A stretch of DNA of 64,000 nucleotides from contig JBFIHX010000008.1 in the NCBI GenBank assembly GCA_041601615.1, positions 30,677-94,676 of the forward strand, in the 5' to 3' direction. The stretch comes from Thermoplasmatota archaeon. GTDB taxonomy: Archaea; Thermoplasmatota; E2; JACPAO01; JAHFTW01. Positions 2,067-59,259 of the stretch are shown in pieces. Each line of letters starts with the position of its first letter. Position 1 is the stretch's first letter. Made by a program: the position numbers and the translations under genes. A model generated the notes under the pieces. That model searched no databases. It was not told where the DNA came from and saw only the letters and a program-made list of their open reading frames with translations.

Positions 2067-2146
2067 AAGCGAGACTCCAACTTGGTACAGCGACAGGCGA
2101 TTATAACCGAGCTTGACGATGAACGGCCAACGTACGCACAAACCAA

Positions 2147-20580: not shown

Positions 20581-20831
20581 CGAGGTTGCATGATGTTATA
20601 AGCAAAATCATAATTAGGGATTTAGTTATTATATACAATCAGTAAATATTACTAAATTTACATCGATAATAGAAAATTAAAGGGGCGCAAGTCGCTTCGC
20701 CCCCTGGGCTGTTCAGGCCAATTCGGCCCAATATCACCACCTTTGCTTATATTATGCTTACTCGATGCTGAACTAGACGTGATTACACGTCGGTGAACAT
20801 TATGCATGTAAAACAAATTTGAGCCACCTTT

Positions 20832-22100
20832 GTGGTGATAACCCTCCTTGGTGTAATCAACGCCCAAGGCCACGAGAGCAATGGTCCCGAAGGCCCTGCT
20901 ACCGACTACAAGACCTCCGAATTCGAGGTTGATACAAGCCAGATGCGCAAGAGCATCAACGAAGGCACGCCCGTGGTTTTGCCCTTTGGGGACATCGGCG
21001 CCATTTCGCTGGTCCTGGCGGAGTTCGACGTGTTCGCTCCGGGCATGAAGATTCGGCCAGTTCACGACGAAACCGGCTCCCCCGTTGGATACGAGCCGTT
21101 CCCATACTGGTCCTTTGAGGGCGTCGTCGCCAACGACCCGACCTCCCGAGCAGTCATTACGATGGACGACAGAGGCCTGTATGGCACCGTGAGGGCTTTT
21201 GACGTGCTGATGCACTACAAGCCAGTCGATGAAGACCATATCCTGGCGAGCGGTGAAATGGCCGTGGTCCGGGCGAAGTGGATCGACAACGGCAGCGCAG
21301 GCAGCATCCTCGTTGACGCGGAAAAGTACGCCATAGACACCGTCCGGGAAAACGATGCATCGCAGTCATCTCAAAGGAGCAGCGCCAAGACGGGTGGCAC
21401 AATCTACTACAAGTCTCCCGATACCAACCGAGTCTACGAGAACGACCTAAGCGTCAGTTGCAACCGCCAGCCTGCCACCGCCAAGTCCCTCGCGGACAAG
21501 CGATTCACGGACAAACACAGCAACTACGCCACTCGCATCGCCAACGCCTTCGCCATTCAACGAGCTATGTGGGACGCTTACACCTGCAACATCCTAGTCC
21601 TCAACAACATCGAGGCGCTACCGTATAACTATAGTAGTTCTGGCACTTGTTCCACGCACCTATTGCATTTCCGCCAATTCAACGAGGAAGAGTGGGGAAT
21701 CAATGCGTATCAACTATTCACTGGCATTGAGCTTAATGACTGTGATGGAATTGGATACAAGGAAAGTGCCGGGGTGCAAGCCAAGCACTACTATGGGTAC
21801 CGAACCGAAAATCCAAACAATTGGTGGGACGACCGTTTGAGCCTCATAGAGGCCGTTGACCACAACCGCTGGTCGGACTCTAACGACCCGGACGAACAGA
21901 GCGACCTGGGCCTTGTGAGTGCCCAAGAAATCGGCCACAACTGGGGCGAGCCAAGCCACCCACAGAGCGCGCAAAACTACCGCTACAACGTAATGGCGGA
22001 TGGAACGATCTATGACGACCGCGATTTCTGGATGACCAATGGAAATTCTTGGAACACTGCGGAGCTTATCGTCAAGGCAACGCAAGGAAAATTCATCTAA
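20832..22100 (+). CDS. hypothetical protein with degenerate metzincin/reprolysin-like motif
   Basis: GTG start immediately after a stop. QEIGHNWGEPSH resembles HExxHxxGxxH, but the first His is Gln and the third His is shifted by one. GC is ~50-58%, below the core. Confidence 0.5.
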   Translation: MVITLLGVINAQGHESNGPEGPATDYKTSEFEVDTSQMRKSINEGTPVVLPFGDIGAISLVLAEFDVFAPGMKIRPVHDETGSPVGYEPFPYWSFEGVVANDPTSRAVITMDDRGLYGTVRAFDVLMHYKPVDEDHILASGEMAVVRAKWIDNGSAGSILVDAEKYAIDTVRENDASQSSQRSSAKTGGTIYYKSPDTNRVYENDLSVSCNRQPATAKSLADKRFTDKHSNYATRIANAFAIQRAMWDAYTCNILVLNNIEALPYNYSSSGTCSTHLLHFRQFNEEEWGINAYQLFTGIELNDCDGIGYKESAGVQAKHYYGYRTENPNNWWDDRLSLIEAVDHNRWSDSNDPDEQSDLGLVSAQEIGHNWGEPSHPQSAQNYRYNVMADGTIYDDRDFWMTNGNSWNTAELIVKATQGKFI

Positions 22101-39857: not shown

Positions 39858-40649
39858 GTGGATGGTCCACGGTTGGCACTATACGACCGCATTAGTGCGC
39901 AAACACGGTTGGTCCAAGCATTTCATAATCGCATGATTGCACAGTTCTGGGTGCTCGCCGTCTCGGGTGCGGCCCTCGTGCGGTTTGTTTTTCTCGAATG
40001 GATGCCACACTTGCCAGGCTCAAATCGCCTTGGCTTGGCGACCGCCATTCTCTCCCTTAATGGCGTTCTAGCCGGCCTAGCGCTATCTGTGCGGATTCGC
40101 AAATGGACGTCCACCAGGACCTCCGAGTACCCAACGCCCATTCGAAGCTACCGTGCATCATGGACCCAGATTGCAGTAGTCTGGATTGCAGGGGCCGGTT
40201 TGATTTCATCGTGGTTTTTGGAAGTGGGCTTTGGCGCAGCGGCGACAATGTTCGGATTTGCTCTGGTGGTTATGTCCATCCCGGCTACCATTCCATGGAT
40301 GGGTGGAAACAAAGACACGAAATTTCGGGCGTGGATGTATGGAATATTTGCATACAGCTATGGTTTCTTGATATTGGCCGCAGTTTTGGGGGCATTCGCA
40401 GCAGTTGTAGCGAGTGGCCCAACTCGATATGCCTTATTCAGTCTGTTTGGAATCGGAATTGGACTTCAATTGCTCGCCAGTGCCGCCATCTCCCTCGACC
40501 GGTCGGACCTAAACACCCCAAATAAGTTTCGAGAACTGCGTCGCAAACTCATGGAACCAAATTCAAACTTGAAAAACATCGAGTCAGAATACTGGCTCAT
40601 TGTTCGCGCCGCCCACGAAGATTCGCATCGGCCGATCTTGGATGGTTAG
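39858..40649 (+). CDS. polytopic membrane protein, hypothetical
   Basis: About 6 hydrophobic helices. Somewhat AT-richer codon use. Confidence 0.45.
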   Translation: MDGPRLALYDRISAQTRLVQAFHNRMIAQFWVLAVSGAALVRFVFLEWMPHLPGSNRLGLATAILSLNGVLAGLALSVRIRKWTSTRTSEYPTPIRSYRASWTQIAVVWIAGAGLISSWFLEVGFGAAATMFGFALVVMSIPATIPWMGGNKDTKFRAWMYGIFAYSYGFLILAAVLGAFAAVVASGPTRYALFSLFGIGIGLQLLASAAISLDRSDLNTPNKFRELRRKLMEPNSNLKNIESEYWLIVRAAHEDSHRPILDG

Positions 40650-41344
40650 GCCACATCCAGTAATTCGTCAATTTGCACTAGGACCCAAATCGACCCCACC
40701 AGCCAATCGTACTCGTGACGCTCCACCAATGCGTGTGCTGTGGCGCCGACGGGCAGCCCCGCGAGTCCCTTCCGGGCAAATGATTCGTAGCCATCGGGGA
40801 CGCGCATCCCCTGCGGCGTTGGCCCTTCGCCCAGATACCACGGCCTACTGCTGAGGGTCACGAAATCGCCATACAGGTGGTAGCGGTTGCGGCTCGTGGC
40901 GCCGGCGTTGCTGGCCAGCAATTCGCCTTGTTCGTTGAATACGAAGATGGTGACGACGGTGGCGTTTCGACCGCCTTCGCCGAATCGTTCTGTATCCGCT
41001 TCCGAAGCCTCCGTGACTGCCAATACGTCACCGGGTGTACGGCATCCGGCTGGGATGTCCACGCGCCAGAGGACGGGAGATTCCGAGTGCAATTGCATGC
41101 TGCGGGGCCCGTCAAGGCACGTCAAGTCGAGGCTGCGGGCGGAGGGTTCTCCGACAGCAAGAAACGGAATCGACTTTCCCGGTTCCGCGACAGCTTCGTG
41201 AAACGCCCACGCAAGTCCCAGCGGTTCTTCTACGGGTGTTGGAAGTGGATCGTCATGTGGAAGGCTTGGAGCCGGCAGTACCACGACGAGGCCGGCGGCC
41301 ACGAGCCCGAGCACCAGGGGCAGCACCCATTCCCGGGCGCTCAT
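40646..41344 (-). CDS. N-terminally membrane-anchored hypothetical protein
   Basis: Single N-terminal TM (VLPLVLGLVAAGLVVVL). Overlaps the upstream acyltransferase gene by 4 nt. Confidence 0.45.
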   Translation of the reverse strand: MSAREWVLPLVLGLVAAGLVVVLPAPSLPHDDPLPTPVEEPLGLAWAFHEAVAEPGKSIPFLAVGEPSARSLDLTCLDGPRSMQLHSESPVLWRVDIPAGCRTPGDVLAVTEASEADTERFGEGGRNATVVTIFVFNEQGELLASNAGATSRNRYHLYGDFVTLSSRPWYLGEGPTPQGMRVPDGYESFARKGLAGLPVGATAHALVERHEYDWLVGSIWVLVQIDELLDVA

Positions 41345-42198
41345 TCTGCCTTCGGGCTCCCGGTGGTGGCGCTGACGTCGTTGGCCGTGACGCGCTCGCC
41401 GGGGACGAGGTCGCGGATTTTGCGCACAGGTACGCCGCCGTAGATGGCGTCACCGTCCAGGGTGGTTCCCTTGGGAACGAGACTCATGGCGCCGATGTGG
41501 CAGTTGTCGCCCATGGTCACGCCGGGGAAGATGTTCGTGTACTGGCCGATGGTGCAGCGGTTGCCGATGACGACTTTTTCGCGCACAAGGCTGCCTTTTT
41601 CGCCGACGTGTCCGAGGATGCTGGCGTTGGCGCCGATGACGGTGTCGTCGCCGACGCTGATGAGGTCCAGATCGTAGACGTGCTGGGTGTTGAACACCAC
41701 GTTGCGGCCGATTTTGGCCCCCATGGCGCGCAGGTACCAGTTGTAGACGTTGGTCAGGCGCGCAAATCGTCCATAGACCGTGTTGAACAGGAAGACGAGG
41801 CCGTTGTGGTTGTACCAGAACCAGATGCGGAAGCTGTGGATTTTGATGGCGCCGGTGTGTGGTTTCCAGCCCATGAGCAAGAACAGCATCCGGACGGCAG
41901 GCAGGACGACCATCAGGGCGAGTCCGAAGGTGAAGAACCCGATGATGCTCCAGTAGAGGCCGACGAAGTTGTCCAGCACGGAACCGAAGGAGCCTGCCCA
42001 CGCGGGGTGCACATCGAGGGACCAGCCCCAGCGCGCCAGAGCCAGCGCCGGAAGTGCAGCCACGGCCATGAAGGCGCCGAGACTGAGATAGGAATAGATC
42101 CAGATGGTCCCGGCGATGGCCCGGATGAGTCCTTTGGCACCCACGAGTCTCCGAGACCCGGCCCCTGTTTCAAGGATGCGTTGCTGCGAGGCGCCCAA
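41341..42198 (-). CDS. membrane-anchored left-handed-beta-helix (hexapeptide-repeat) acyltransferase
   Basis: Two to three N-terminal TM helices, then hexapeptide repeats (IGRNVVFNT, VIGANASILGHV, VVIGNRCTIGQYTNI, MGDNCHIGAMSLV). Confidence 0.65.
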   Translation of the reverse strand: MGASQQRILETGAGSRRLVGAKGLIRAIAGTIWIYSYLSLGAFMAVAALPALALARWGWSLDVHPAWAGSFGSVLDNFVGLYWSIIGFFTFGLALMVVLPAVRMLFLLMGWKPHTGAIKIHSFRIWFWYNHNGLVFLFNTVYGRFARLTNVYNWYLRAMGAKIGRNVVFNTQHVYDLDLISVGDDTVIGANASILGHVGEKGSLVREKVVIGNRCTIGQYTNIFPGVTMGDNCHIGAMSLVPKGTTLDGDAIYGGVPVRKIRDLVPGERVTANDVSATTGSPKAE

Positions 42199-42389
42199 TC
42201 AGGACCCGATGGGTGTGTCGGGGCAGATGCCGAAGAGGCCCTCACCTGGCTTGCACTCATCGGAAATCAGGGGACCCGGCATCAAGGCGACGACGGATGC
42301 CCGAGGGGAGCTCCAGCCCCGGCCCACACCGCCCAGGGTGATGGAAATCCACGGCAGGCACGCCATGAGCGGTGCCGCGAAGGAGCCCG

Positions 42390-42551
42390 CCGCCGAAGGC
42401 TGTTGGGGCCCGTGCATGTATGCAGGGCAATGCACGCGGTTCCGGATCGAGATCCGGGCGAACAAATTAGGAATGGGAAGGGAAAAGGGGGAGTGTTCCA
42501 AGGAACATTTTCGTGCACCTTGGCAGGGTTCAGCTGATCCGAACCAACGGA
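42390..42551 (-). repeat. conserved non-coding 3' flank of Tyr/Cys-rich gene copy 1 (contains hairpin CGTGCAT-N12-ATGCACG)
   Basis: Near-identical to 43300..43457 and recognisably related to 44010..44154. Confidence 0.6.
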
Positions 42552-42872
42552 TTAGCAGAGGCCAACGCGAACGGGGCTCGTGTCGACGTACAGTTCGTTG
42601 CCGTAGCAGGTGTAGGAGTTGCCGTCGCAGTAGTAGCTGGTCCACGGGTAGTACACGTTCAGGGGGCCGTCGACGTAGGTGCGGTAGCTGTAGCAGCTGC
42701 TCGGGAAGTCGTAGTACGTGGTGCATGTCCGGACTAGGGAATCGCCGGTCAAGGGATCGTACAAGATTGGCGAGTTGCAGTACGTGGTGTGCGTGGCAGA
42801 TGCCGGCGAAATCATCAGCATGGTTCCGACGAGCAGCATTCCTAGCAGCAGGGGTTTGAGTATGGAGTTCAT
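42552..42872 (-). CDS. small secreted Tyr/Cys-rich protein, tandem paralog 1 (106 aa; ~80-aa mature part with 6 Cys and ~17 Tyr)
   Basis: Signal peptide MNSILKPLLLGMLLVGTMLMISPASA. 75-80% identical to the two paralogs downstream on this strand. Confidence 0.65.
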   Translation of the reverse strand: MNSILKPLLLGMLLVGTMLMISPASATHTTYCNSPILYDPLTGDSLVRTCTTYYDFPSSCYSYRTYVDGPLNVYYPWTSYYCDGNSYTCYGNELYVDTSPVRVGLC

Positions 42873-42940
42873 CCAATCCCCGCATTCAAAATATTCAATA
42901 TAAATATAATACGGGATGTTCGGAAAATCCTAAAATATGG
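42873..42940 (-). promoter_or_regulatory. AT-rich archaeal-type promoter (TATA-like TTTATATT ~30 nt upstream of ATG) for paralog 1
   Basis: A very AT-rich block directly upstream of the gene in otherwise 65% GC DNA. The reverse-complement reads ...GTATTATATTTATATTGAATATTTTGAATGCGGGGATTGGATG. Confidence 0.35.
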
Positions 42941-43299
42941 CCATGCGCCGAGCCGAACTATATTTTCCTAGATGGTTTAGTATCAGTGAAATGGACACCA
43001 CACCCACTTGGAATTGCCCCCGGACTGCGGCCCTAGAGGCGCCGACCACCACTAGGCTGCCCAGAAGAACGTAGGCCAGTGCGCCACCCCCGAGGCCAGT
43101 TTCATTGCAATCACTGCTTGCACTGGCTGTTCGGCCAAGCGTACAAGAATAAGGCGCCAACGAGAATAGGGACGGCATCCTCGACGGCCCGGACCAGTTC
43201 TTTGGCACCCGTAACTTGCCGAGACTTGGGCCCTGATTCAAGGACGCGAGAAATCCGACGCATCCGCGGGCGGTGCGCGGAGCCACGAAGAGCCCGCCA

Positions 43300-43457
43300 C
43301 CAAACCTTGGGGGCCCCGTGCATGTATGCAGGGTAATGCACGCGGTTCCGATCGGAGATCCTAGCGAGCAATGCCGGAATTGGAGGGGAAAAGGAGGAGA
43401 GTACCAAGAGACATCTTGGCGAAACTTGGCGTGTTTCAACTCATCCGAACCGACGGA
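43300..43457 (-). repeat. conserved non-coding 3' flank of copy 2 (same hairpin element)
   Basis: Near-identical to the copy-1 3' flank. Confidence 0.6.
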
Positions 43458-43775
43458 CTAGCAGACGCCAACGCGAGCAGGGTTCGTGTCGACGTACAGC
43501 GTGTTCTGGTAGCAGGTGTAGCTGTTGCCGTCGCAGTTGTAGTTCCTCCACGGGTAGTACACGTTCGTGGGACCATCGATGTAGCTGCGGGAGTAGTAGC
43601 AGCTGCTAGGGTAGTTGTAGTAGGTGGTGCACGTCCGAATCGGGTCACCAGTCAAGGGGTCGTACACGATGGGCGAGCCGCAGTACGTGTAGTGGCTGGC
43701 AGAAGCCGGCGAAATCATCAGCACGGTTCCGACGAGGAGCATTCCGAGTAGCAGGGGTTTGAGTATGGAGTTCAT
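43458..43775 (-). CDS. small secreted Tyr/Cys-rich protein, tandem paralog 2 (105 aa)
   Basis: Same signal peptide and Cys spacing as paralog 1. Confidence 0.65.
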   Translation of the reverse strand: MNSILKPLLLGMLLVGTVLMISPASASHYTYCGSPIVYDPLTGDPIRTCTTYYNYPSSCYYSRSYIDGPTNVYYPWRNYNCDGNSYTCYQNTLYVDTNPARVGVC

Positions 43776-44009
43776 CCAATCCCAGCATGCAAAAAATTCA
43801 ATATAAACATAAGACGGGATGTTCGAAAAATCCTAAAATATAGTCGTGGGGCAGCGCCATTCTACATGTTACTAGCGGTTTTAGAATCAATGAGAAGGTG
43901 GCCATCCCCAACCTCGAATTGGCTCCAGGCAGCGCCCCTCGAGGCGGCTCCGCCACCCCCCCTAGACTTCCCAGAAGAACGTCGACAGACCCGCCACCGA
44001 ACACAGAGG

Positions 44010-44154
44010 GGGCCCGCGCATGTTTTCAAGGTTAATTGAACGGTGTTGTGTCGAGATCCGAGCGAACAAAGCAGGAATTGGAAGGGAAAAGGAGGAAAAT
44101 CCAAGGGGCTGCTTCGTGCACCTTGGCCTGTTTCAACCCATCCGATTTGACAGA
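44010..44154 (-). repeat. diverged copy of the conserved 3' flank (copy 3)
   Basis: Shares the CCTTTTCCCTTCC pyrimidine tract and the GGATCTCGA segment. The hairpin has degenerated. Confidence 0.45.
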
Positions 44155-44475
44155 CTAGCAGAGGCCAACGCGAACGGGGCTCGTGTCGACGTACACTTCG
44201 TTCTGGTAGCAAGTGTAGCTGTTGCCGTCGCAGTAGTAGTTGGTCCACGGGTAGTACACGTTCACGGGGCCATCAACGTAGGTGCGGTAGTAGTAGCAGC
44301 TGCTAGGGTAGTTGTAGTAGGTGGTGCAGATTGTGACCATCGGATCGCCTGTCAAGGGATCGTACACAAGGGGCGGATTGCAGTACGTCGTGTGGTTGGC
44401 GGAAGCCGGCGTAATCATCAGCACGGTTCCAACGAGCAGCATTGCGAGTAGCAGGGGTTTGAGTATGGAGTTCAT
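44155..44475 (-). CDS. small secreted Tyr/Cys-rich protein, tandem paralog 3
   Basis: Starts at MNSILKPLLLAMLLVGTVLMITPASA. The ORF track allows 3 extra codons up to 44484. Confidence 0.65.
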   Translation of the reverse strand: MNSILKPLLLAMLLVGTVLMITPASANHTTYCNPPLVYDPLTGDPMVTICTTYYNYPSSCYYYRTYVDGPVNVYYPWTNYYCDGNSYTCYQNEVYVDTSPVRVGLC

Positions 44476-44987
44476 ACAATTCATTCATGCCAAATACCAA
44501 TATAAGTTTGGCTCGGGATTTTTGATAATTGGCCCAATATCAATGGTCGATGTAGCCCCCATATAGTTTACTATTTAGTTTTTTATCCAAGGATTGGGGA
44601 CGCACCCAATATACCTGCCTTCAGCGACGAATGGCCCAGTGGAGTCGCCGGCCGGTTGCGAGCCCAGCAGCAATTGAGCAAGTCCGCCATCTTTGAAAGC
44701 GGCATCACTGCGAGCACAGGAGGTGCTGTCTCTACAGAGGCGTCCGCTGAATGCCAGCGCCGTCGGTAGGACCCAGGTCGTTCATCCATTCATGATTGAA
44801 TCGCAGTTGTTTGCGGGTCCAAGGCCAAATGCAGGGGCCCGAAGCGCAGATTTCCCTTACAAGCGCGCCAACAAGCGCCGTGCGATCCTTGCCCCGCGCT
44901 CCTCTACAAAACCAGAACCACCCAATGGTTGACGGCCCGCCCCTCCCCCCCACAACCTTCACGACCCCACCTAGACCTCCACGCCCC

Positions 44988-46022
44988 ATGCGCACCCTGG
45001 CCACCCTTCTGTTGATCATCCCCCTTTTGGCAGGTTGCCTCTCCGACGATAGGGCAGATTCCATCGACAGCGCCGACGATCCCCTGCCCTTGACTGAATT
45101 GAATTGGGACGTGGTGGCCGGCGTGGATTGGTGGGAAGACCTCGCCACGAGCTACCCGAAACACGACACCTACACGCCCGTCAACGCAGCACTTCGCCAA
45201 CACCTCGTTTCCGAGATGCAGGCACTTGGCTTCGAGGTGGAAGTGCGCACCTACTACGCCTTGCCCCGCGATCCATCCCAAGTTCCGGCGCCTGAAGTAG
45301 AACCCATCGAAGTCCACGCCATCGTCGCGACCAAACTTGGCACCGAATTTCCCAACGAACGCATCGGCCTCGTCAGCCACTACGACACCCAAACCCTCAC
45401 CGTCCATGGCGCCTACGACGACGCCTCTGGAGTCGCTGCCGAATACAACATCTGCAAGAGCCTCGCCGACGTGCCCATGAAGCGAACACTCGCCTGCATC
45501 TTCTTTGACGCCGAAGAGCAAGGACTGGTCGCGTCGAAGCGCTACGTCGAAGACGTGGTGCTGGCGGGCGACGAGGGCTACACCTACGAATTCGTGCTCG
45601 GCTACGACATGACGGGCATCAACTGGCCCGGCTACCCCGACTGGAAAATGTACGTCATGGTCGGCGAGAACGTCGTCGAATGGCTGCGCCCCTTTGCCCA
45701 AGACGTGATGCACAACCAACTCGGCTACCCCACGAGCGGCGTCGAAGTGCTCGACGTACACGACCGCAACTCGGACGAACGTCGCTTCAAGGAAGCCGGT
45801 GTGCCGATCCTGCGCTTTGCCGGGGGTCGCAACGCCGCCGACTACCCCCAATACCACATGCCCCTCGACACCGTCGACTATGTCTACGACTTTGTGGGTG
45901 GCCGCGCCAACTTTGAAGCCGGATTTGCCACCGTCGTGGAAGCAAGCCACCACACCATCCTCGCCCTCGACGAAACCGGCGCCACCGCTTTGCAGCAGAA
46001 GGCCGGCATCCCAAGCCAGTAA
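44988..46022 (+). CDS. M28-family aminopeptidase lipoprotein
   Basis: Start re-placed at MRTLATLLLIIPLLAGC. M28 contexts HYDT, DDASGV, FFDAEEQGL. Confidence 0.8.
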   Translation: MRTLATLLLIIPLLAGCLSDDRADSIDSADDPLPLTELNWDVVAGVDWWEDLATSYPKHDTYTPVNAALRQHLVSEMQALGFEVEVRTYYALPRDPSQVPAPEVEPIEVHAIVATKLGTEFPNERIGLVSHYDTQTLTVHGAYDDASGVAAEYNICKSLADVPMKRTLACIFFDAEEQGLVASKRYVEDVVLAGDEGYTYEFVLGYDMTGINWPGYPDWKMYVMVGENVVEWLRPFAQDVMHNQLGYPTSGVEVLDVHDRNSDERRFKEAGVPILRFAGGRNAADYPQYHMPLDTVDYVYDFVGGRANFEAGFATVVEASHHTILALDETGATALQQKAGIPSQ

Positions 46023-46173: not shown

Positions 46174-48672
46174 GTGGACGCGCCGGCTGGATTCCGCGCC
46201 ACCCTCTTCGTGGTGGTCCTTCTTGCGGCACTCGCCATCCCAAGCGAGGTCGTGGCACCTGCAAGCCCATTCACTGCCCAACTCGCCGCAACCTCCGCCG
46301 AAGGCTGGACCAACAGTGCCGAGGCACGCACATCCCCCGGCGCCGCAACTACATCCACCAGCGGCACCGTGCTCACCCTCACCGCCTTCGGCCCCGCCGC
46401 CAGCGGAAGTATCGAATCCATCCGGATCCGCGTGGACGCGAGCCAAGCCAACCACTACGACGACGAAATCACCGTTTCCATCACGGGCGGCTGCAACGAC
46501 GCGACAGTCAGCACCCCCAGCATTCAACCAACCACGAGCCGAGCCACCTACACACTCAACGCCCCATGCAGCGCGGGCTGGACCTGGCCCGGCGCCACTT
46601 CCTTGCAGGTGCGACTCGAATCCAAAGCCAACGGAGGCATCCTCGGCGTCGGCGCCACCGACGGCACCTGGAGCATCCATTTCGCTACCCTAGAAGTCAC
46701 CTACACCAACCAAGTCCCCAGCGCAAACGCGGGCGCCGATCGAACCGTCATGGAGGGCAGCACAGTCACCCTCCAAGCCAGCGGCAACGACCCCGAAGGC
46801 GGACCCCTGGCCTATTCCTGGAGCCAAACCAGCGGCCCCACCGTGACCCTCAGCACCGGCCCCGAGCCCACCTTCACAGCACCAACGCTCGCAACAAACA
46901 ACCCCACGAGCCTTACCTTCTCGCTACAAGCCCAAGACGACCACGGCCAACAAACCACCGACACCATCCAAATCACGGTCCAAAACCACAACCAACCCCC
47001 CGTAGCCCGCGCCGGCAGCGACCGGCCCGCCAAAACAAGCGAAATGGTGACCCTAGACGGCAGCACCTCCACGGACCCCGACGAAGACCCCTTGACCTAC
47101 TCCTGGAGTCAAACCGATGGCCCCGTCGTCCAGCTTCACGCCGCAAACACCGCAACACCCGGATTCACAGCAGCCACCAGCGGCATCCACACCTTCCAAC
47201 TCACCGTACTCGACGGCCACGACGGCAGCCACTCCGACTCCATCACCATCACCGTCAGCACAGCCACGACTCCGCCCGCGACCGAAAACAACATTCCCGC
47301 CCCCACCCCTGCACCCTCCTCTGCGCCCTCGCCTGCGCCCGCGCCCGCGCCCTCCTCCGCGCCGGCCTCCACTTCGGCACCTGCTGCCCCCAGCACCACG
47401 CCCGAATCCACAACCACCACAGCAACCAGCCCCACCGAACCCAACCCCCACCCAAGCAATGCAACAACCCTAGCGCCCCCGCCAGCCAACACCACAACCA
47501 GCCCCAGCAACCAAACCGACAACGGCAGCAACAGCGCCTCCGCCGCCAGCCGCACAACCCACCAAGCCAGCCAAACCCAATCCCAAAGCCAAACGCCCGC
47601 CCCCGAGCCATTCCAACGCATGGACGCCTGGATCTACTGGATCGGAGCCGCATTCCTCGCCAGTGTCACCACCACCGGCGCCGTCGTCCACCGACGAATA
47701 CGCCACCGCCCCCGCCTGCTACCCGCCGGCACCATCCCCAACCAAATCCCGCCCCGAGAACCCATCCTCACACAACCCGACCCCACCGCCACTGCACGGG
47801 AAGCCACAGCCGAACCCATCATCACGCCACCACCCACGCCAAGCCCCGAACCACCCACATCCCAACGACCCAACATCATCCTCGGTGACCTCGGACAAGA
47901 ACTACGCAACCAAGAACTCCTGCAATTTCTCAACAACGCCAGCCACGACCTCGCAAGCCCCCTCACCCCCATCCGACTCCAACTCTCCATGCTCCTGCAA
48001 TACCACGGCGACAACCTCGACGACAAACAACGCCGCGCCCTCGCCGTCGTCACCCGCAACGTCGACCAAATGGGCCTCCTCATCACCGACCTCAAAGACG
48101 CCGCCCGCCTCCAAGCCGGCCACATGGACCTCTACCCCGAACCCATGGACCTCACCGCACTCACCCGCGACGCCGCCGAAACCTTCGAAGCCCCATGCCG
48201 CGAGAAAGGCGTCCAGCTCCACTTCGACGCCCAACCCACAACCGCCTACATCCTCGGAGACGCCGGCCGCCTCAACCAAGTCCTCTACAACCTCATCAAC
48301 AACGCCCTCAAATTCACCGACCAAGGAGGCACCATCCACATCGCACTGCGCCAAAGCGACAACCACTACGTCGTCGCCATCCAAGACACCGGCATCGGCA
48401 TGACACCCGAAGACGCCGCCCGCCTCTTCCAACCCTTCAGCCAGGCCCACGGCGCCAACCAGAAGAAAAAAGGCAGCGGCCTCGGCCTCTACATCAGCAA
48501 AGGCATCATCGAAGGCCACAACGGAGAAATCTGGTGCCAAAGCGAAGGCAGAGGCCACGGCAGCGTATTCGCATTCATGATCCCCACGCACACAAAATCA
48601 AGCACGCAAGGCGAAAGGGAAGAACAGGAAGAAAACGCCGCAAGCGACGCAACAGAACAAACGACGGACTAA
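46174..48672 (+). CDS. sensor histidine kinase with extracellular PKD-like repeats, Pro/Thr/Ser-rich linker, one TM, HisKA and HATPase domains
   Basis: Signal peptide. Two SWSQT-type PKD repeats (PLAYSWSQTSGP, PLTYSWSQTDGP). TM MDAWIYWIGAAFLASV. H-box HDLASPLT. N/G1/G2 boxes (LINNALKFT, DTGIGM, GSGLGL). Confidence 0.8.
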   Translation: MDAPAGFRATLFVVVLLAALAIPSEVVAPASPFTAQLAATSAEGWTNSAEARTSPGAATTSTSGTVLTLTAFGPAASGSIESIRIRVDASQANHYDDEITVSITGGCNDATVSTPSIQPTTSRATYTLNAPCSAGWTWPGATSLQVRLESKANGGILGVGATDGTWSIHFATLEVTYTNQVPSANAGADRTVMEGSTVTLQASGNDPEGGPLAYSWSQTSGPTVTLSTGPEPTFTAPTLATNNPTSLTFSLQAQDDHGQQTTDTIQITVQNHNQPPVARAGSDRPAKTSEMVTLDGSTSTDPDEDPLTYSWSQTDGPVVQLHAANTATPGFTAATSGIHTFQLTVLDGHDGSHSDSITITVSTATTPPATENNIPAPTPAPSSAPSPAPAPAPSSAPASTSAPAAPSTTPESTTTTATSPTEPNPHPSNATTLAPPPANTTTSPSNQTDNGSNSASAASRTTHQASQTQSQSQTPAPEPFQRMDAWIYWIGAAFLASVTTTGAVVHRRIRHRPRLLPAGTIPNQIPPREPILTQPDPTATAREATAEPIITPPPTPSPEPPTSQRPNIILGDLGQELRNQELLQFLNNASHDLASPLTPIRLQLSMLLQYHGDNLDDKQRRALAVVTRNVDQMGLLITDLKDAARLQAGHMDLYPEPMDLTALTRDAAETFEAPCREKGVQLHFDAQPTTAYILGDAGRLNQVLYNLINNALKFTDQGGTIHIALRQSDNHYVVAIQDTGIGMTPEDAARLFQPFSQAHGANQKKKGSGLGLYISKGIIEGHNGEIWCQSEGRGHGSVFAFMIPTHTKSSTQGEREEQEENAASDATEQTTD

Positions 48673-54825: not shown

Positions 54826-55427
54826 TCCTGAAGGGTGAGCAACTTCCCACTTGTACCTGTGAATTTTATGAAATTCTCTACATCTGGGCTATACCATGCG
54901 TGCCAGATTTCACCACTTTGGAATGTACTAATTGTGTGGATTGTTTTCATTTTACCCCATGTGGTGTCTACGGTGTCCCACCCTTCGACAGCCACGTCAT
55001 AATGGTAATTTTCCTCGTATCCGTCTTGGTAGGTGGTGCAGTTATGGGTGTAGTTTGCCATCGGGAAAATTGGTCGTTGAGGGCAGTCATTCCAGAAGTA
55101 AAGCTTCGTCTGAAATGCCACCCACCCTAACGACTCTGTATCTACCCACTGGGTTCCCGCGCCTGTTGGGTGGATGTAGGGATCGGGCGGAGTCTCTACA
55201 AGAAGTCGGTATGTAGAATACCCTTGGTGTTCTTCAATACCCTCAACTTTGTAATGAAGCCACTCACCATCCGTGGTGTTGTATTTCCACCACTGTCCTA
55301 CCCCCCATGTGGGTACTGGCACATCCGACGGATCTGGCAAGGAGGCGTCCGCCTCGGAGGCCATACAGCCCGACAGGACGATGGCAACGAGCAGCAGGGA
55401 AGGAACGATAAGGATACGCATATTCAT
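54795..55427 (-). CDS. lipoprotein, Trp/Tyr-rich (hypothetical)
   Basis: Start re-placed at MRILIVPSLLLVAIVLSGC lipobox. AT-richer codon use. Confidence 0.45.
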   Translation of the reverse strand: MNMRILIVPSLLLVAIVLSGCMASEADASLPDPSDVPVPTWGVGQWWKYNTTDGEWLHYKVEGIEEHQGYSTYRLLVETPPDPYIHPTGAGTQWVDTESLGWVAFQTKLYFWNDCPQRPIFPMANYTHNCTTYQDGYEENYHYDVAVEGWDTVDTTWGKMKTIHTISTFQSGEIWHAWYSPDVENFIKFTGTSGKLLTLQDWGVKPPESE

Positions 55428-55440
55428 CTCCGAGATGATT

Positions 55441-58400
55441 TCAGTCATAAATAACTTCGTCGTGTCTCCAAACGTATTCCTGCGACGGAGTCGGAGAGAC
55501 TAAGTGGTCTACGAAGAACAGATCGACAGGTAGTGCCCAGTTGACAATGGGCGGTTGTTGGATGACAGCAGTGTATGGTACGCGGAGGAAGTTCGGATTG
55601 AAATCCCGCTCCTCCAATGCGTAGTGGATTTCGTCGCCTGTCTGGGCAAGGTTCCAGTAATACCCAACGATATCCCCGACGAAGTGTATTTTCATCATTG
55701 TTAAGAGCCATTTTTCGATATTTTTAGATTCTAGTGTTTTTATGATGGCCTTGACCCACCCATCGGCTTTTTGAGTAACTTCGGCGAAATTCGCGAAGTC
55801 CTCGTCCATGTCTAGAACATGGTGACGGAAGCCGATGCAATCATGGGGGTGGCTCGACTCACCCGAATGCCCGTAGTTTATCCACTCACAGGACTTGTAG
55901 TATGCCTCCCAATAGGCATTAAGAGCAAAACCATTGCCATCATTAGGTGCACGGCCGCTGGGAGGCGGGTTCTGCACTCTGTCGCGGTCTACAGACGAGT
56001 ACGGGTTGGATGGTACGAGGTTCATGAACCGGTCGCCGTCCGTGGCAGGGTTGCCTCCATTTCGAGTCTCGTATTGTTGGATGAACCATGTGTAATACTG
56101 GCCGTTGATTGGCGTAATCTGACCCCGGTTGGAACTGAATCGTTGGTCGTGGTCGTACTCGTAGTGATCCCACCCACTGACACGATTGCTGGAGGAATAG
56201 TATTCGTTCTTCAGCAGTTGCAGATTCGACCAGTAGTGGAAGCGGTTCCCAGTCTCATCCTCCTTCCACAACACCTTCAGGGTGTCCTTGTAGGCATGGT
56301 CGAAGAACGCATACGCATCGTAGCCGTGGCTGTCGTGATTGATGCCATTGGCGTCCGTGCGCCGAGTCGTGGTGAACCGGCTCATGACCTCGTAGTCCTC
56401 CTGGCCTGAGTAGAGCGCGACCTCTACGATCAACTCGCCGGCCCGGTCGGAACCGCCGTTCTCGCGGATCACGGAATTGGCGCTGCCGCTGTCCAGGTCT
56501 ACGCCGAAGCGCAAGCCGGGTGCAAACGACGTGCCGACGAAACGGAACGTATTGTCGCCCTCCACAAGGTATTCAGGCGGGAACGAAATGTAGCGGTACT
56601 GTTCCTCGGTACTGCTCCATGCGCAAGGATTGATCATGTAGATCATGACTCCGTTGACTTCCAAGCTGATGCTGTACTCACCTCCTTCGCTGCACCCGGT
56701 GCTGCGGCCCCAGATGCCCATCCAGGCGTCGTAGCCGCCGCCGTAACTCAGGTCTCGGATGTCGAGAGTCTTGATGAACTCGTCATTGCCACTGTTGACC
56801 TCCGCGCTCGTCTCGGCAGAAAAATCGTCGTTGTAGTATCCCTTGTAAGTATTGGCCTGGACCGTGTTGTAATTCCATTCCGTCGTGTAGACAGTGGTTG
56901 AATCGTTCGGAGATGGGGGCTGGCTGCTCGTGGTACCTGTCACGGACACGTCGTCCACGAACCAACCAAGGAAGCCGTTGGCGATGCTGTCTATTGTGTC
57001 GAAGCGGAACGCGAGGCGCACGTCCTGGCCGGTGAAGCTGCTCAGGCTGTACGTGCGCGTGACCCATTGCTCTTGGCTACCGTCGATGAGCGGGAAGTCC
57101 TGCAACACGGCACCCGTCGAACTGACGACCTGGACCCATTTCCGGTCGTAGCTCGTGCCAGATTCCGTCTGGTGCCAGCTCCTGAACGACAACGTGGCGC
57201 TTCCTGGAACGGTGAAGATGGGGCTGGTCAGGGTGCCGCTGTTGCGGGCGCCGTTGTCGTAATTGTTCGTGGATTCTTGTCCGTACCAACTGCTCTTGCA
57301 ACACGACTGGTACTTGTCAGAGGACAAGTGCCACATACCGGTCGTGCTCCACGAAGTGGAGGCGCTGTTGAATCCCTCCGATATGCCTTGGCCCGTGGAG
57401 CCGCCACCTCCGGTGTCGTCGGTTTCGGTGATTAGCACGTCGTCGATGGCCCAATGGTCGTAACTCGACCCACTGTGGGTCAGTTGGCGCCACCGGAACT
57501 GGGTGCTGGTCGTCTGGGCTCCCACTGGAATGGTTTCCGTGATGGACGTGAAGAGCGAGTAGCTGTCTTCTTTGTAGGTCTTGATAGTCGCCCAAGAGCC
57601 GCCGCCGTTGGTGCTGTATTCCAGGACTACGTCCTCGCTGGAGTCTGCATTCTCACACGGCGAGGACCCGGTACCGATGCGGAGGTAGAAGTTGACATGG
57701 CCTCCGCTGCTTACGTCCAGGCTCTTGGTGGCGGCGCTACGGGTGGAGCCGCCATCAAAGTAGAGCGCGTAGGGGCTGCTCTGGCTGCCGCAACTGCTGC
57801 CTTCGCTAGCGCCTGAGTAGGTCCACTTGTTCGTGTCAAAGCTGCCGTCATTGAAGTTGTCCGAGAGCCGGGTCACACCGCTACCGCCGTTGGTGACGGT
57901 GTTGGTGATGACCACGTCGTCCACGGCCCAGTGGTCTCGGTCTGTGTATGCTGCGAAGTTGAGTTCCCGCCATCGGAACATGGTGTTGCTCGTCTTAGCG
58001 ACCGATGGAATCGCGGCGGACTGGGACCCCCATGAGCCGTGGCTTCCAGCTTGAAGCGTCTTGATGGCAGTCCAGGAGGAACCGCCGTTGGTCGAGTATT
58101 CCAGGACCAGATCGTCGTCGTGTTCGGGTTCGGGCTTGTCACAGGTCCCTCCCCCCGTCCCGGTTCCGTGGCGGGCATAGAAGGATATGGAATCACCGTT
58201 CTGGACGTTGAGGCCTGGGGTGCGGGCGTAGCGGCCGCTGGTGCCGTAGAAGTAAAGGGCACGGCTTCCGCTGACGCTGCCGCAATTCGTGGATTCACTC
58301 ACGCCGCTTCGGCTCGGCCACTTGGATGAACTGATGGTGCCGTCGTCGAAATCGTCCTGGAACACGATCTGGGTGCCGACTTCCTGCAAGTCCGGGGATG

Positions 58401-59118
58401 CCGTGGGTAGTTCCGGTGTGAGGTTGGTGGTCTGGTGGTACGTGCGGTTCCAGTCCTCGAAGGGAATGTAGTCGGCCATCATGCCCGGCATGGGGTTGCT
58501 GCCGGTGCGGGGCACGCGGATGTCGGGGAGAACGTCGCGGGGCGCGGGGAGGCTGGCAGGCATTGGGGTGGATGTGGATTGGGTCGAGTCGTTGCAGTCC
58601 GGCGGGCTCGGCGGTTCGGGTGGATTAGTGTCACCCCCGCCTTCCACCTGAACGTTTACCTTGCCCCCGCTAGAGTCCGAGGACGAGGCTCGGGAGGAGG
58701 TGGTTTGGCAGGGGTTGATAGGCGGGTCTTCCACAAGATCCAGCAGGTTGGTGTGGTAGAAGACCCGAGTCGGCACCGGGCTTTGCTGGATGGCGATCTC
58801 GTCATCGGGGAATTCCGCAAGGTCGTAGGCGGGAAGGGCGCCGGAGTAGAGTAGGCCCTTGTATTCGTCCAACTGGTTTGCCAGGGCAGTCATGACGCTG
58901 TTGGCGCGGAGGCTGCGGGCGGTGGGGGCCATGCCAGTGGGGTCAAGGCCGCCGACGGTCAGGTCCATGGCGTCCAGAAGTTCGCGCTCCAGTTCCCCCA
59001 CGTCGTCGCGGCCCAGGGGCAGTTGGTCTTGGCTGGCGGTGAGGGGGATGCTCACAAGTAGCGTCAGGCTCAACACGGCGGCAGTCGTAATCTTTGTCAG
59101 GGTGGCAGGATTGAACAT
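55441..59118 (-). CDS. large secreted protein (~1220 aa) with three MAM-like/jelly-roll repeats and an uncharacterised ~420-aa C-terminal domain
   Basis: Start re-placed at MFNPATLTKITTAAVLSLTLLVSIPLTAS. Three repeats carry the C-G-S...ALYF-x-G...LEYSTNGG-x-SW...FRWRQ...DHWA[IV]DDV pattern. GC is lower than the core. Confidence 0.7.
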   Translation of the reverse strand: MFNPATLTKITTAAVLSLTLLVSIPLTASQDQLPLGRDDVGELERELLDAMDLTVGGLDPTGMAPTARSLRANSVMTALANQLDEYKGLLYSGALPAYDLAEFPDDEIAIQQSPVPTRVFYHTNLLDLVEDPPINPCQTTSSRASSSDSSGGKVNVQVEGGGDTNPPEPPSPPDCNDSTQSTSTPMPASLPAPRDVLPDIRVPRTGSNPMPGMMADYIPFEDWNRTYHQTTNLTPELPTASPDLQEVGTQIVFQDDFDDGTISSSKWPSRSGVSESTNCGSVSGSRALYFYGTSGRYARTPGLNVQNGDSISFYARHGTGTGGGTCDKPEPEHDDDLVLEYSTNGGSSWTAIKTLQAGSHGSWGSQSAAIPSVAKTSNTMFRWRELNFAAYTDRDHWAVDDVVITNTVTNGGSGVTRLSDNFNDGSFDTNKWTYSGASEGSSCGSQSSPYALYFDGGSTRSAATKSLDVSSGGHVNFYLRIGTGSSPCENADSSEDVVLEYSTNGGGSWATIKTYKEDSYSLFTSITETIPVGAQTTSTQFRWRQLTHSGSSYDHWAIDDVLITETDDTGGGGSTGQGISEGFNSASTSWSTTGMWHLSSDKYQSCCKSSWYGQESTNNYDNGARNSGTLTSPIFTVPGSATLSFRSWHQTESGTSYDRKWVQVVSSTGAVLQDFPLIDGSQEQWVTRTYSLSSFTGQDVRLAFRFDTIDSIANGFLGWFVDDVSVTGTTSSQPPSPNDSTTVYTTEWNYNTVQANTYKGYYNDDFSAETSAEVNSGNDEFIKTLDIRDLSYGGGYDAWMGIWGRSTGCSEGGEYSISLEVNGVMIYMINPCAWSSTEEQYRYISFPPEYLVEGDNTFRFVGTSFAPGLRFGVDLDSGSANSVIRENGGSDRAGELIVEVALYSGQEDYEVMSRFTTTRRTDANGINHDSHGYDAYAFFDHAYKDTLKVLWKEDETGNRFHYWSNLQLLKNEYYSSSNRVSGWDHYEYDHDQRFSSNRGQITPINGQYYTWFIQQYETRNGGNPATDGDRFMNLVPSNPYSSVDRDRVQNPPPSGRAPNDGNGFALNAYWEAYYKSCEWINYGHSGESSHPHDCIGFRHHVLDMDEDFANFAEVTQKADGWVKAIIKTLESKNIEKWLLTMMKIHFVGDIVGYYWNLAQTGDEIHYALEERDFNPNFLRVPYTAVIQQPPIVNWALPVDLFFVDHLVSPTPSQEYVWRHDEVIYD

Positions 59119-59235
59119 TCGATTTCCTCCAGTGGACTCATCGACTTCGGGCATATCGGCCGATGTGAGTTGCCCCAAGAAATGGACTTTGGTACTTGAA
59201 TTCTTGCTGTAAGGGCAATTTGCATTTCCCATTTG

Positions 59236-59259
59236 ACCCAATATCAATAATCATATTGG
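59236..59259. promoter_or_regulatory. inverted repeat CCCAATAT-N8-ATATTGGG upstream of the large secreted-protein gene
   Basis: A member of the recurring CCCAATAT intergenic motif family (see findings). Confidence 0.3.

What the first reader, a model, noticed from the sequence alone, without database searches (positions are those of the whole stretch)
42199..44580. Tandem triplication of a small Tyr/Cys-rich secreted protein gene, each unit with its own AT-rich promoter and a conserved non-coding 3' flank
Three paralogs lie at 42552-42872, 43458-43775 and 44155-44475 (minus strand). They encode ~105-aa precursors with near-identical Sec signal peptides. The ~80-aa mature parts have 6 conserved Cys and about 20% Tyr (YY, YxY, YYCDGNSYTCY). 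The paralogs differ at many mature-region positions, while the signal peptide, the Cys scaffold and ~160 bp downstream of each stop are conserved. That pattern is typical of diversifying secreted effectors such as halocin-like antimicrobial peptides, adhesins or surface variation. No known family was recognised from memory. The operon continues into a membrane-anchored acyltransferase and two membrane proteins.
Basis: seen in the sequence. Interest (0 to 1): 0.75.

Follow-up and report, generated by a model that had tools for sequence, protein, structure and literature searches.

The report
Tandem trio of orphan secreted archaeal proteins
Three neighbouring genes in an uncultured archaeon encode near-copies of a tiny exported protein rich in tyrosine and cysteine. 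The protein belongs to a very rare, unnamed family, is under ordinary purifying selection, and has no known function.

Summary
Three minus-strand genes (42552-42872, 43458-43775, 44155-44475) encode 105-106 aa precursors. Each has a Sec-type signal peptide and a ~9.2 kDa mature part with 6 invariant Cys and 17.5-20% Tyr.

**Copy number.** The copies are ~80% identical in DNA. A second public assembly reproduces the whole array with one mismatch in 2979 bp, so it is not an artefact.

**Family.** It is real but tiny: about 12 sequences, 10 clusters among 5.8 billion proteins. Those that can be placed are Thermoplasmatota-like MAGs or metagenome contigs. There is no Pfam, NCBIfam, PHROG or PDB match. 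A related MAG has an independently amplified four-gene array and a fifth copy elsewhere.

- dN/dS is 0.33-0.48, so selection is purifying, not diversifying.
- The 3' flank diverges at about the synonymous rate, so it is a duplication passenger. Only a hairpin plus CU-rich terminator-like tract recurs in other genomes.
- Neighbouring genes differ at every locus, so there is no conserved operon.

**New points.** An 11-nt promoter element sits 39-40 nt before the ATG in all seven array genes of two genomes. A relic of the acyltransferase 5' end marks the duplication. The C-terminal third weakly resembles HYR-like adhesion repeats.

Function is inferred: an abundant extracellular binding or coating protein.

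The parts
44155..44475 (-). Copy 3 coding sequence (106 aa precursor). The signal peptide is encoded by 44398-44475.
   Evidence: ORF. Identical to database protein P0001. Family alignment.
43458..43775 (-). Copy 2 coding sequence (105 aa precursor). The signal peptide is encoded by 43698-43775.
   Evidence: ORF. Identical to P0002. Alignment.
42552..42872 (-). Copy 1 coding sequence (106 aa precursor). The signal peptide is encoded by 42795-42872.
   Evidence: ORF. The exact sequence is present in the protein collection. Alignment.
43990..44505 (-). Duplication unit 3: about 30 nt of promoter, the gene and about 165 nt of 3' flank.
   Evidence: Self-BLAST: 81% identity to units 1 and 2 over 520 nt.
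43274..43982 (-). Duplication unit 2: about 205 nt upstream, the gene and about 185 nt of 3' flank.
   Evidence: Self-BLAST: 80% identity to unit 1 over 715 nt.
42366..43072 (-). Duplication unit 1, the counterpart of unit 2.
44514..44524 (-). Conserved upstream promoter element CAAAAATCCCG. Its 3' end lies 38 nt before the ATG of copy 3.
   Evidence: The pattern CRAAMATCMCS occurs only 3 times in 64 kb, once before each copy. In locus L002 it occurs 4 times, once before each array gene.
43815..43825 (-). Conserved upstream promoter element CGAACATCCCG of copy 2.
42912..42922 (-). Conserved upstream promoter element CGAACATCCCG of copy 1.
44499..44506 (-). TATA-like box CTTATATT at -31..-24 of copy 3. 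This placement implies a leaderless or very short-leader mRNA.
   Evidence: Read from the sequence. The upstream 60 nt are 37% G+C.
43800..43807 (-). TATA-like box TTTATATT at -32..-25 of copy 2.
42897..42904 (-). TATA-like box TTTATATT at -32..-25 of copy 1.
44080..44126 (-). 3' element of copy 3: hairpin CCAAGG-N14-CCTTGG (44126-44101), then a CU-rich tract (44100-44080). It looks like a terminator.
   Evidence: Stem found, tract. Only 6 such tracts occur in 64 kb, and 3 of them are here.
43382..43429 (-). 3' element of copy 2: hairpin 43429-43404, then CU-rich tract 43403-43382.
42475..42523 (-). 3' element of copy 1: hairpin 42523-42498, then CU-rich tract 42495-42475.
43182..43248 (-). 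Relic of the 5' end of the acyltransferase gene. It was carried into the spacer between copy 2 and copy 1 by the duplication.
   Evidence: 78% identical to 42114-42180, which lies inside ORF 41341-42198 (family D4). The translations RVLESGPKSRQVTGAKELVRAVE and RILETGAGSRRLVGAKGLIRAIA align.

Best explanation
**What is shown.** The locus is a three-gene tandem array, made by local duplications of a 0.5-1 kb unit. One of the duplications also copied the first codons of the downstream acyltransferase gene. The gene belongs to a very small, unnamed family. The members that can be placed come from Thermoplasmatota-like archaea.

Each copy is an independent transcription unit. Reading 5' to 3', it has:
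- a family-specific 11-nt element ending 38-39 nt before the ATG;
- a TATA-like box at -32..-24, implying a leaderless or near-leaderless mRNA;
- the coding sequence;
- a hairpin followed by a CU-rich terminator-like tract.

All copies are kept by purifying selection.

**What is inferred.**
- The precursor is exported by the Sec pathway and cut after the conserved P-A-S-A.
- The mature protein is about 80 aa, acidic and roughly 9.2 kDa. It folds as an up-and-down antiparallel beta-sheet.
- Its six invariant cysteines form three disulfides that staple successive hairpins. The likely pairs are C32-C50, C60-C82 and C89-C106.
- Its many tyrosines line the sheet surface.
- It acts outside the cell as an abundant, stable binding or coating module. 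The target would be a surface, a polymer or the cell's own envelope.
- The array serves mainly to raise dosage, with mild sub-functionalisation of loop residues.
For: **Array and duplication history**
- ORFs and repeats.
- Acyltransferase relic at 43182-43248.
- A second assembly is 99.97% identical over the whole array.

**Family**
- An exhaustive HMMER scan of 1.84 billion representatives finds 4 further full-length relatives, E 5e-24 to 1.8e-8.
- Word-indexed searches find 10 clusters in 5.8 billion proteins.
- All 6 Cys, plus P40, G43, Y90, Y95, R102 and G104, are invariant in 12 sequences.

**Selection**
- dN/dS is 0.33-0.48 in the mature part and 0.09-0.25 in the signal part.
- It is 0.27-0.44 in the older array of L002, where dS is 0.65-1.06.

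**Independent amplification**
- The window trio and the L002 quartet form separate clades. The same MAG also has a single copy (L008) that is closer to the window trio.

**Promoter and terminator**
- The promoter element is found only before family genes, at a fixed distance, in two genomes.
- A CU-rich tract follows family genes in the window, L002 and L006.

**Protein features**
- Export signal: a Lys-containing n-region, a 15-residue hydrophobic core and P-A-S-A, with no RR motif and no lipobox (read).
- The C-terminal 28 residues match HYR_4C adhesion repeats. The hhalign score is 28.2, against at most 20.8 in 200 column shuffles.
- The mature protein is acidic and 20% aromatic.
Against: - No experiment or expression data bear on function.
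- Both structure models are of middling confidence (mean pLDDT 64-66), and no fold match is specific.
- The disulfide pairing is inferred from strand order only.
- The HYR resemblance covers only the last third. It does not reach any Pfam threshold. It was also noticed in the best weak hit of a very large search, so it suffers selection bias.
- No anchor, partner gene or conserved neighbour points to a target.
- dN/dS of 0.3-0.5 is higher than for typical housekeeping proteins. Some adaptive change in loops is therefore not excluded.
Confidence: 0.55

Rival explanations
1. The proteins are archaeocins, meaning secreted disulfide-stabilised antimicrobial peptides in the manner of halocins. The paralogs would differ in target range.
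For: - They are small, exported, have three probable disulfides, occur as multiple paralogs and have a very narrow taxonomic range.
- Variable positions cluster in predicted loops.
Against: - No NCBIfam or Pfam hit of any kind, at E up to 0.1 and 10 respectively.
- No immunity, processing or export gene is conserved next to family members at six loci.
- dN/dS is below 0.5 in both arrays, and an array is retained to dS of about 1.
- The mature protein is acidic and hydrophilic, unlike membrane-active peptides.
- From general knowledge, halocin C8 is cut from a 283-aa Tat precursor that also supplies the immunity protein. That architecture is absent here.
Confidence: 0.13
2. The proteins are subunits of a self-assembling extracellular structure, such as a fibre, sheath, amyloid-like film or envelope coat. 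The paralogs would be major and minor subunits, as in curli CsgA/CsgB, chaplins or cannulae CanA-C.
For: - The sequence is beta-rich and rich in Tyr, Thr, Asn and Ser. It is predicted as an open up-and-down sheet with exposed edge strands.
- The best structural analogues are single-layer or barrel-wall sheets.
- There are several co-expressed paralogs with strong-looking promoters.
Against: - No similarity to any known fibre subunit family: the Pfam scan was negative.
- No assembly, nucleator or anchoring gene is conserved nearby.
- Three intramolecular disulfides in 80 residues argue for a compact monomer.
- L004 carries a single copy. L006 shows one copy, but it lies at the edge of its contig.
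Confidence: 0.17
3. The mature protein is a true, highly diverged stand-alone HYR-type (Ig-like) adhesion domain. It would have been derived from, or be ancestral to, the repeats of giant surface proteins.
For: - It has the same unit length, about 80 aa, and six Cys per unit.
- The C-terminal pattern W-x4-C-x2-N-S-x2-C-x5-[FY]-[VI]-D-T-x-P is shared with the HYR_4C repeats of P0009.
- hhalign gives 50.8% probability, and the score lies far above the shuffles.
Against: - No family member hits PF02494 or PF23237, even at E up to 10.
- The N-terminal two-thirds do not align.
- The match was picked from the tail of a search of 1.84 billion proteins.
Confidence: 0.15
4. The triplication is an assembly artefact or an array of decaying pseudogenes.
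For: The sequence comes from a short-read MAG. In the second assembly the contig breaks on both sides of the array.
Against: - The copies differ by about 20%, so they cannot be created or merged by an assembler.
- An independent contig reproduces order and sequence with 1 mismatch in 2979.
- All three frames are intact, with dN/dS well below 1 and all family-invariant residues kept.
Confidence: 0.01

Closest known systems
HYR / HYR_4C extracellular adhesion repeats (Pfam PF02494, PF23237)
   Same: The unit is about 80 residues, with six Cys per unit in the repeats of P0009. The C-terminal motif is shared (W, C, N-S, C, aromatic, V/I-D-T, P, then C). Both are extracellular.
   Different: Here the domain stands alone behind its own signal peptide, rather than being repeated in a giant protein. 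No Pfam-level match exists. Only the last 28 columns align. The protein is unusually Tyr-rich. The predicted topology is a meander, not clearly an Ig sandwich.
Halocins and other archaeocins (for example halocin C8)
   Same: They are archaeal, small, secreted, disulfide-rich and stable. They also have a narrow distribution.
   Different: There is no sequence relation and no adjacent or fused immunity protein. The signal is Sec-type rather than Tat. The protein is acidic and hydrophilic. Selection is purifying.
Hydrophobins and chaplins (small secreted multi-paralog proteins with a fixed Cys pattern that coat surfaces)
   Same: Size, signal peptide, invariant Cys scaffold with variable loops, and several paralogs per genome that are often clustered.
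   Different: There is no sequence similarity (Pfam negative). The protein is not hydrophobic (GRAVY -0.4 to -0.7). The host is an archaeon.
[not shown]
   Same: A predicted run of long antiparallel hairpins forming an open sheet.
Type A carbohydrate-binding modules (for example CBM1, CBM5/12) with planar aromatic faces
   Same: They are small, disulfide-stabilised beta modules whose Tyr/Trp platform binds crystalline polymers.
   Different: No CBM family is hit in Pfam. No enzyme domain is attached or adjacent.

Membership tests
Sec-exported secretory protein (signal peptidase I substrate) | An N-terminal positively charged n-region, a hydrophobic core of 10-15 residues, small residues at -3 and -1 (A-x-A), and no twin-arginine, lipobox or class III motif. 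| tested here: met
   Read from the alignments. The sequence is M-N-S-I-L-K, then a 15-residue hydrophobic core, then P-A-S-A, followed by T/S/N-H. No dedicated signal-peptide predictor was available.
Tandem gene duplication | Head-to-tail units whose similarity extends through non-coding flanks, with junction evidence. | tested here: met
   The units are 80-81% identical over 520-715 nt, promoter and 3' flank included. A relic of the neighbouring gene's 5' end lies in the spacer. A second assembly reproduces the array.
Diversifying (positively selected) effector family | dN/dS above 1, at least across the mature region. | tested here: not met
   dN/dS is 0.33-0.48 in the window trio and 0.27-0.44 in the L002 quartet. 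Site-wise tests are not possible with so few sequences.
Halocin C8-like archaeocins | A match to a known halocin or bacteriocin domain model. | tested here: not met
   No NCBIfam or Pfam family at E up to 0.1 or up to 10.
Halocin C8-like archaeocins | An immunity or processing partner that is fused or adjacent. | tested here: not met
   The precursor consists only of signal plus mature part. Neighbours differ at all loci.
Halocin C8-like archaeocins | Growth inhibition of related archaea. | not testable with these tools
   This needs purified protein and cultures.
HYR / HYR_4C domain | A score above the Pfam gathering threshold for PF02494 or PF23237. | tested here: not met
   None of 11 members matches, even at E up to 10.
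HYR / HYR_4C domain | Profile-profile similarity over the domain. | tested here: inconclusive
   hhalign gives 50.8% probability over 28 of about 80 columns. The score is 28.2, against a shuffle maximum of 20.8. The comparison was chosen after seeing the hit.
HYR / HYR_4C domain | An Ig-like beta-sandwich fold. | tested here: inconclusive
   [not shown]
Hydrophobin, chaplin, beta-gamma-crystallin or killer toxin, CBM families | A match to the corresponding Pfam models. | tested here: not met
   No Pfam family for any member. There is no specific structural match either.
Structured non-coding RNA in the 3' flank | An Rfam match, or covariation that supports a fold. | tested here: not met
   Rfam finds only a tRNA elsewhere in the window. 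The RNAalifold covariation term is +1.23, with 2 compensatory pairs among 41. With three sequences the power is low.
Operon with the downstream acyltransferase | Conserved adjacency in other genomes and no intervening terminator. | tested here: not met
   A 353-nt spacer holds a hairpin and a CU-rich tract. No hexapeptide transferase lies near family genes in L002, L004, L006 or L008.

The most novel reading that the evidence does not exclude
These genes define a new archaeal class of stand-alone, triple-disulfide beta-sheet proteins with a tyrosine-lined face. The proteins would be made in bulk from repeatedly and independently amplified gene arrays under a dedicated regulator that recognises the CRAAMATCMCS element. 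They would coat the cell or glue it to sediment particles or polymers. That would be a hydrophobin- or adhesin-like function not yet described in archaea, possibly sharing ancestry with HYR adhesion repeats.
Probability: 0.2. Interest if true: 0.6.

Novelty: new variant of a known kind. Interest (0 to 1): 0.35.

Why it matters
Small secreted proteins of uncultured archaea are almost entirely uncharacterised. This family has several features that point to a strongly selected extracellular role:
- a fixed six-cysteine scaffold;
- extreme tyrosine content;
- its own conserved promoter element;
- independent tandem amplification in two lineages.

If that role proves to be adhesion or surface coating, it would show how sediment-dwelling Thermoplasmatota interact with particles or polymers. 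It would also provide a compact, disulfide-stabilised scaffold of possible biotechnological use. As it stands, this is a well-defined orphan family, not a surprising mechanism.

Tried and rejected
**Searches that found nothing**
- Pfam, NCBIfam and PHROGs scans of the paralogs and relatives gave no hits.
- A PDB sequence search gave nothing below E 0.15.
- Foldseek against PDB gave a best E of 0.32.
- The AlphaFold database library was unavailable.
- The first GTDB species-representative scan, whose patterns came from the trio alone, found nothing.
- Two scans of JGI metagenome contigs and one of viral contigs found nothing. The DNA pattern was checked to work on the known loci.
- Four literature searches found no description of the family or of the source assemblies.

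**Ideas considered and dropped**
- The other weak HMMER hits (P0010-P0013) lose significance with the broader family profile. They carry unrelated repeat domains, so they were rejected as compositional.
- A second conserved small ORF in the 3' flank. The frames stay open in the window, but the flanks of L002, L006 and L008 share nothing beyond the CU tract.
- Pairing between the 5' leader (GGGATTGG) and the 3' flank (CCAATTCC). This holds only for some copies and is absent in L002.
- An N-terminal His metal-binding motif. The His is not at a fixed position in P0007 and P0008.
- A protease-inhibitor role linked to the neighbouring M28 peptidase. The adjacency is not conserved.
Full report

Yes. 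The ORF list shows three minus-strand ORFs at 42552-42872 (106 aa), 43458-43775 (105 aa) and 44155-44475 (106 aa).

- The precursors are 79-83% identical overall.
- The first 26 residues (MNSILKPLLLGMLLVGTxLMIsPASA) are identical at 23-25 positions. The mature parts are 73-81% identical.
- Each mature part has six Cys and 14-16 Tyr in 79-80 residues, which is 17.5-20%.
- It weighs about 9.2 kDa, has a pI of 4.2-5.4 and is 20% aromatic.
- At the DNA level the three units are 80-81% identical over 520-715 nt, flanks included.
- No further copy or pseudogene lies in the 64 kb.

**2. Is the copy number real?**

All three proteins are on record from an NCBI contig of 100,260 bp, presumably the source of the window. 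Two of them, and a 109-aa variant of the third, are also on a second contig. That second contig is JBFJJT010000149.1 of assembly GCA_041635295.1.

It is 2979 bp long and matches window 41945-44923 with one mismatch, carrying all three genes in the same order. Copies that differ by 20% are not the kind of repeat an assembler collapses or invents. I put the artefact reading at about 1%.

**3. Anatomy of one unit**

Coordinates below are relative to each ATG on the minus strand.

*a. Upstream element.* An 11-nt element, CGAACATCCCG or CAAAAATCCCG, ends 38-39 nt before the ATG.
- The degenerate pattern CRAAMATCMCS occurs exactly three times in the window, once per copy.
- It occurs exactly four times in the 15.9-kb locus L002 of another genome, once before each of that genome's four family genes at the same distance.
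- The pattern was derived from these sequences, so matching them is circular. Two things are not circular: it is absent everywhere else, and it survives before copy 3. Copy 3's upstream region is otherwise unrelated to those of copies 1 and 2, at 46-49% identity in the last 35 nt.

*b. TATA-like box.* TTTATATT or CTTATATT sits at -32..-24, within 60 nt of 33-37% G+C. In an archaeon this placement predicts a leaderless or very short-leader mRNA. That is inferred from general knowledge of archaeal promoters.

*c. Coding sequence.*

*d. 3' element.* It starts 28 nt after the stop. A perfect 6-bp hairpin, CCAAGG-N14-CCTTGG, is followed at once by a CU-rich tract such as TCCTCCTTTTCCCTTCC.
- Only six such tracts exist in the window, and three of them are here.
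- Similar tracts follow the family genes of L002 and L006.
- I read this as a terminator or 3'-UTR element. That is an inference.

**4. The 'conserved 3' flank'**

About 165-190 nt after the stop is alignable. Its divergence is K = 0.29 for copies 1 and 2, and 0.44-0.48 against copy 3. That is equal to or greater than the synonymous divergence of the genes, dS 0.31-0.34.

- Rfam finds nothing there.
- RNAalifold gives a positive (unfavourable) covariation term.
- Apart from the CU tract, nothing in the flank recurs in other genomes.

The flank is therefore a passenger of the duplication, not a conserved functional element.

**5. Duplication history**

- Unit 2 (43982-43274) matches unit 1 (43072-42366) from about 205 nt upstream of the ATG to about 185 nt past the stop.
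- Unit 3 (44505-43990) shares only about 30 nt upstream and about 165 nt downstream.
- Inside the spacer between copies 2 and 1, 43248-43182 is 78% identical to 42180-42114, which are codons 7-28 of the acyltransferase ORF 41341-42198. The translations also align: RVLESGPKSRQVTGAKELVRAVE against RILETGAGSRRLVGAKGLIRAIA.
- So the duplication that produced copies 1 and 2 spanned the gene, its flank and the start of the acyltransferase gene. The extra gene start has since decayed.
- Flank divergence says copies 1 and 2 are the most recent pair, whereas coding divergence is about equal for all pairs.
- The signal-peptide region is distinctly more similar (K 0.07-0.11; dS 0.15-0.27) than the mature region. 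This is compatible with some gene conversion or with constraint on the 5' end. I did not resolve which.

**6. Selection**

Nei-Gojobori dN/dS is 0.33-0.48 for the mature region and 0.09-0.25 for the signal region. The four-gene array of L002 is older (dS 0.65-1.06) and gives 0.27-0.44.

The copies are therefore maintained by purifying selection over long periods, with somewhat relaxed constraint. Variable positions fall in blocks: 33-37, 45-49, 55-56, 62-67, 78-81 and 91-94. These lie mostly between or at the ends of predicted strands.

**7. The family**

- The word-indexed search with one paralog returned only the window's own paralogs.
- An exhaustive HMMER scan of 1.84 billion cluster representatives found four further full-length relatives of 100-113 aa, with E from 5e-24 to 1.8e-8.
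- Searches with growing alignments added only the members of one more genome and then nothing new. The total is ten 90%-identity clusters in 5.8 billion proteins.
- All six Cys are invariant across 12 sequences, as are P40, G43, Y90, Y95, R102 and G104. The C-terminal motif C-[DN]-G-x-[SYT]-[YW]-x-C-Y ... V-Y-V-D-T-S-P-x-R-x-G-x-C is nearly so.

*Where the relatives lie.*

| Locus | Source | Family genes | Neighbours |
|---|---|---|---|
| L002/L007 | JBFJXT010000009.1, titled 'MAG: Thermoplasmatota archaeon isolate Mix_sand19.2022.05.G.64' | four in tandem (108, 118, 117, 117 aa) | an ABC transporter and an MMPL transporter |
| L008 | another contig of the same MAG | one | next to a tRNA-Met and a DEAD-box helicase |
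| L004 | JGI contig, 70% G+C | one | between an aldolase/PFK pair and a threonine dehydratase |
| L006 | Logan contig | one visible; the gene is at the contig edge | beside an FKBP gene |

No neighbour is shared between loci.

In a neighbour-joining tree the window trio forms a clade, sister to L008 plus P0005. The L002 quartet forms a separate clade. Tandem arrays therefore arose independently in two subfamilies.

Scans of GTDB species representatives, JGI metagenome contigs and viral contigs found no further loci.

The window itself is probably from a Thermoplasmatota archaeon. This is an inference from an archaeal-type ATP-dependent DNA ligase, the TATA-type promoters and its closest family relatives.

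**8. What the protein looks like**

The N-terminus has the classic Sec/signal-peptidase-I layout and lacks RR, lipobox and class III motifs (read). There is no C-terminal anchor. Three L002 members have about 10 extra residues after the last Cys.

AlphaFold2 was run with 3 and with 9 aligned sequences.
- Mean pLDDT is 66.5 and 64.0, with 70-78 over most of the mature part (about 40 over the last 15 residues of the second model).
- Both models show seven antiparallel strands in up-and-down order.
- From strand order, the likeliest disulfides are C32-C50, C60-C82 and C89-C106. This is inferred, not shown.

**9. A lead to known families**

The fifth-best HMMER hit, P0009 (E 4e-6, summed over 25 short matches), is a 3562-aa protein made of 25 HYR_4C repeats, PF23237. 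Each repeat is about 80 aa with six Cys. Each ends W-R-V-T-D-C-x-D-N-S-x-E-C-S-Q-V-V-K-F-[VI]-D-T-T-P-P, which lines up with W-T-S-Y-Y-C-D-G-N-S-Y-T-C-Y-G-N-E-L-Y-V-D-T-S-P-V of the family.

- Profile-profile comparison with eight diverse repeats gives 50.8% probability over 28 columns.
- The score of 28.2 exceeds all 200 column-shuffled controls (mean 10.4, maximum 20.8) and the reversed controls.
- Against this, no family member hits HYR models in Pfam even at E up to 10. The first two-thirds do not align. The comparison was also chosen after the fact.

I treat a remote relationship to HYR adhesion modules as possible, at about 15%, but unproven.

**10. Function**

The following are shown:
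- export signal;
- fixed Cys scaffold;
- purifying selection;
- independent promoters sharing a family-specific element;
- repeated amplification;
- no conserved partner genes.

The following is inferred: an abundant, stable, extracellular binding or coating protein whose tyrosine-lined sheet is the working surface.

The rivals, with my estimates:
- **Archaeocin, about 13%.** It is disfavoured by the lack of any immunity or export partner, the acidic hydrophilic character and dN/dS well below 1.
- **Self-assembling structural subunit, about 17%.** This is not excluded.

**11. Verdict**

Its reading as 'diversifying effectors in an operon with a conserved non-coding flank' is largely not borne out.

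What remains is a clean, very rare orphan family of small secreted archaeal proteins, with a recurrent tendency to form tandem arrays. The kind of thing is familiar: tandemly amplified small secreted proteins with a cysteine scaffold. The family itself is new and its function is untested. Interest is moderate to low, at 0.35.

Noticed in passing
window 41341-42198 (-) and 40646-41344 (-): A membrane-anchored hexapeptide-repeat acyltransferase. Its best NCBIfam match is the C-terminal domain of Pls/PosA-type NRPS (TIGR02353, E 3.6e-22, far below the family cutoff). It overlaps by 4 nt a 232-aa ORF with an N-terminal hydrophobic segment and no family match. The two are probably a two-gene operon of their own.
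   Followed up: partly
window 44796-46022 (+): An M28 peptidase transcribed divergently from copy 3. The ORF as listed starts at a TTG. An internal MRTLATLLLIIPLLAGC looks like the true start, with a lipobox-like LAGC.
   Followed up: no
window 117-2519 (-): An 800-aa protein resembling the CTQ-dependent glycine and lysine oxidases GoxA/LodA (E 4.9e-122, below the equivalog cutoff). This is unusual in an archaeal contig.
   Followed up: no
window 61718-63523 (-) and 13160-14887 (-): Bacterial-type genes in what appears to be an archaeon: an ABC-F (EttA-like) ATPase and a bacterial-type cofactor-independent phosphoglycerate mutase. Locus L004 likewise has a bacterial-type topoisomerase I, so its taxonomic origin is uncertain.
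   Followed up: no
window 20001-21000 and 55001-56000: Local G+C dips to 0.456 and 0.507, against about 0.62 elsewhere. ORFs 19978-20580 and 20658-21239 have no Pfam match. This may be foreign DNA.
   Followed up: partly
window 46174-48672 (+): A histidine kinase with extracellular PKD/Big_9 domains and a very long Pro/Thr/Ser-rich linker. Strong GC and AT skew at 46-49 kb reflects this low-complexity coding region.
   Followed up: partly
window 55441-59247 (-): A 1268-aa ORF with no NCBIfam match.
   Followed up: no
L002 4212-4568, 4882-5235, 5549-5902: Three of the four array members in the related MAG carry about 10-residue tails after the otherwise C-terminal Cys (GGRSIEAELL, GSLAVFTPQLL, NGLTFDADTN). 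Their meaning is unknown.
   Followed up: no
window 42795-42872, 43698-43775, 44398-44475: The signal-peptide-coding DNA is much more alike between copies (K 0.07-0.11; dS 0.15-0.27) than the mature-coding DNA (K 0.17-0.23; dS 0.36-0.39). This suggests 5' gene conversion or constraint on the mRNA start.
   Followed up: partly
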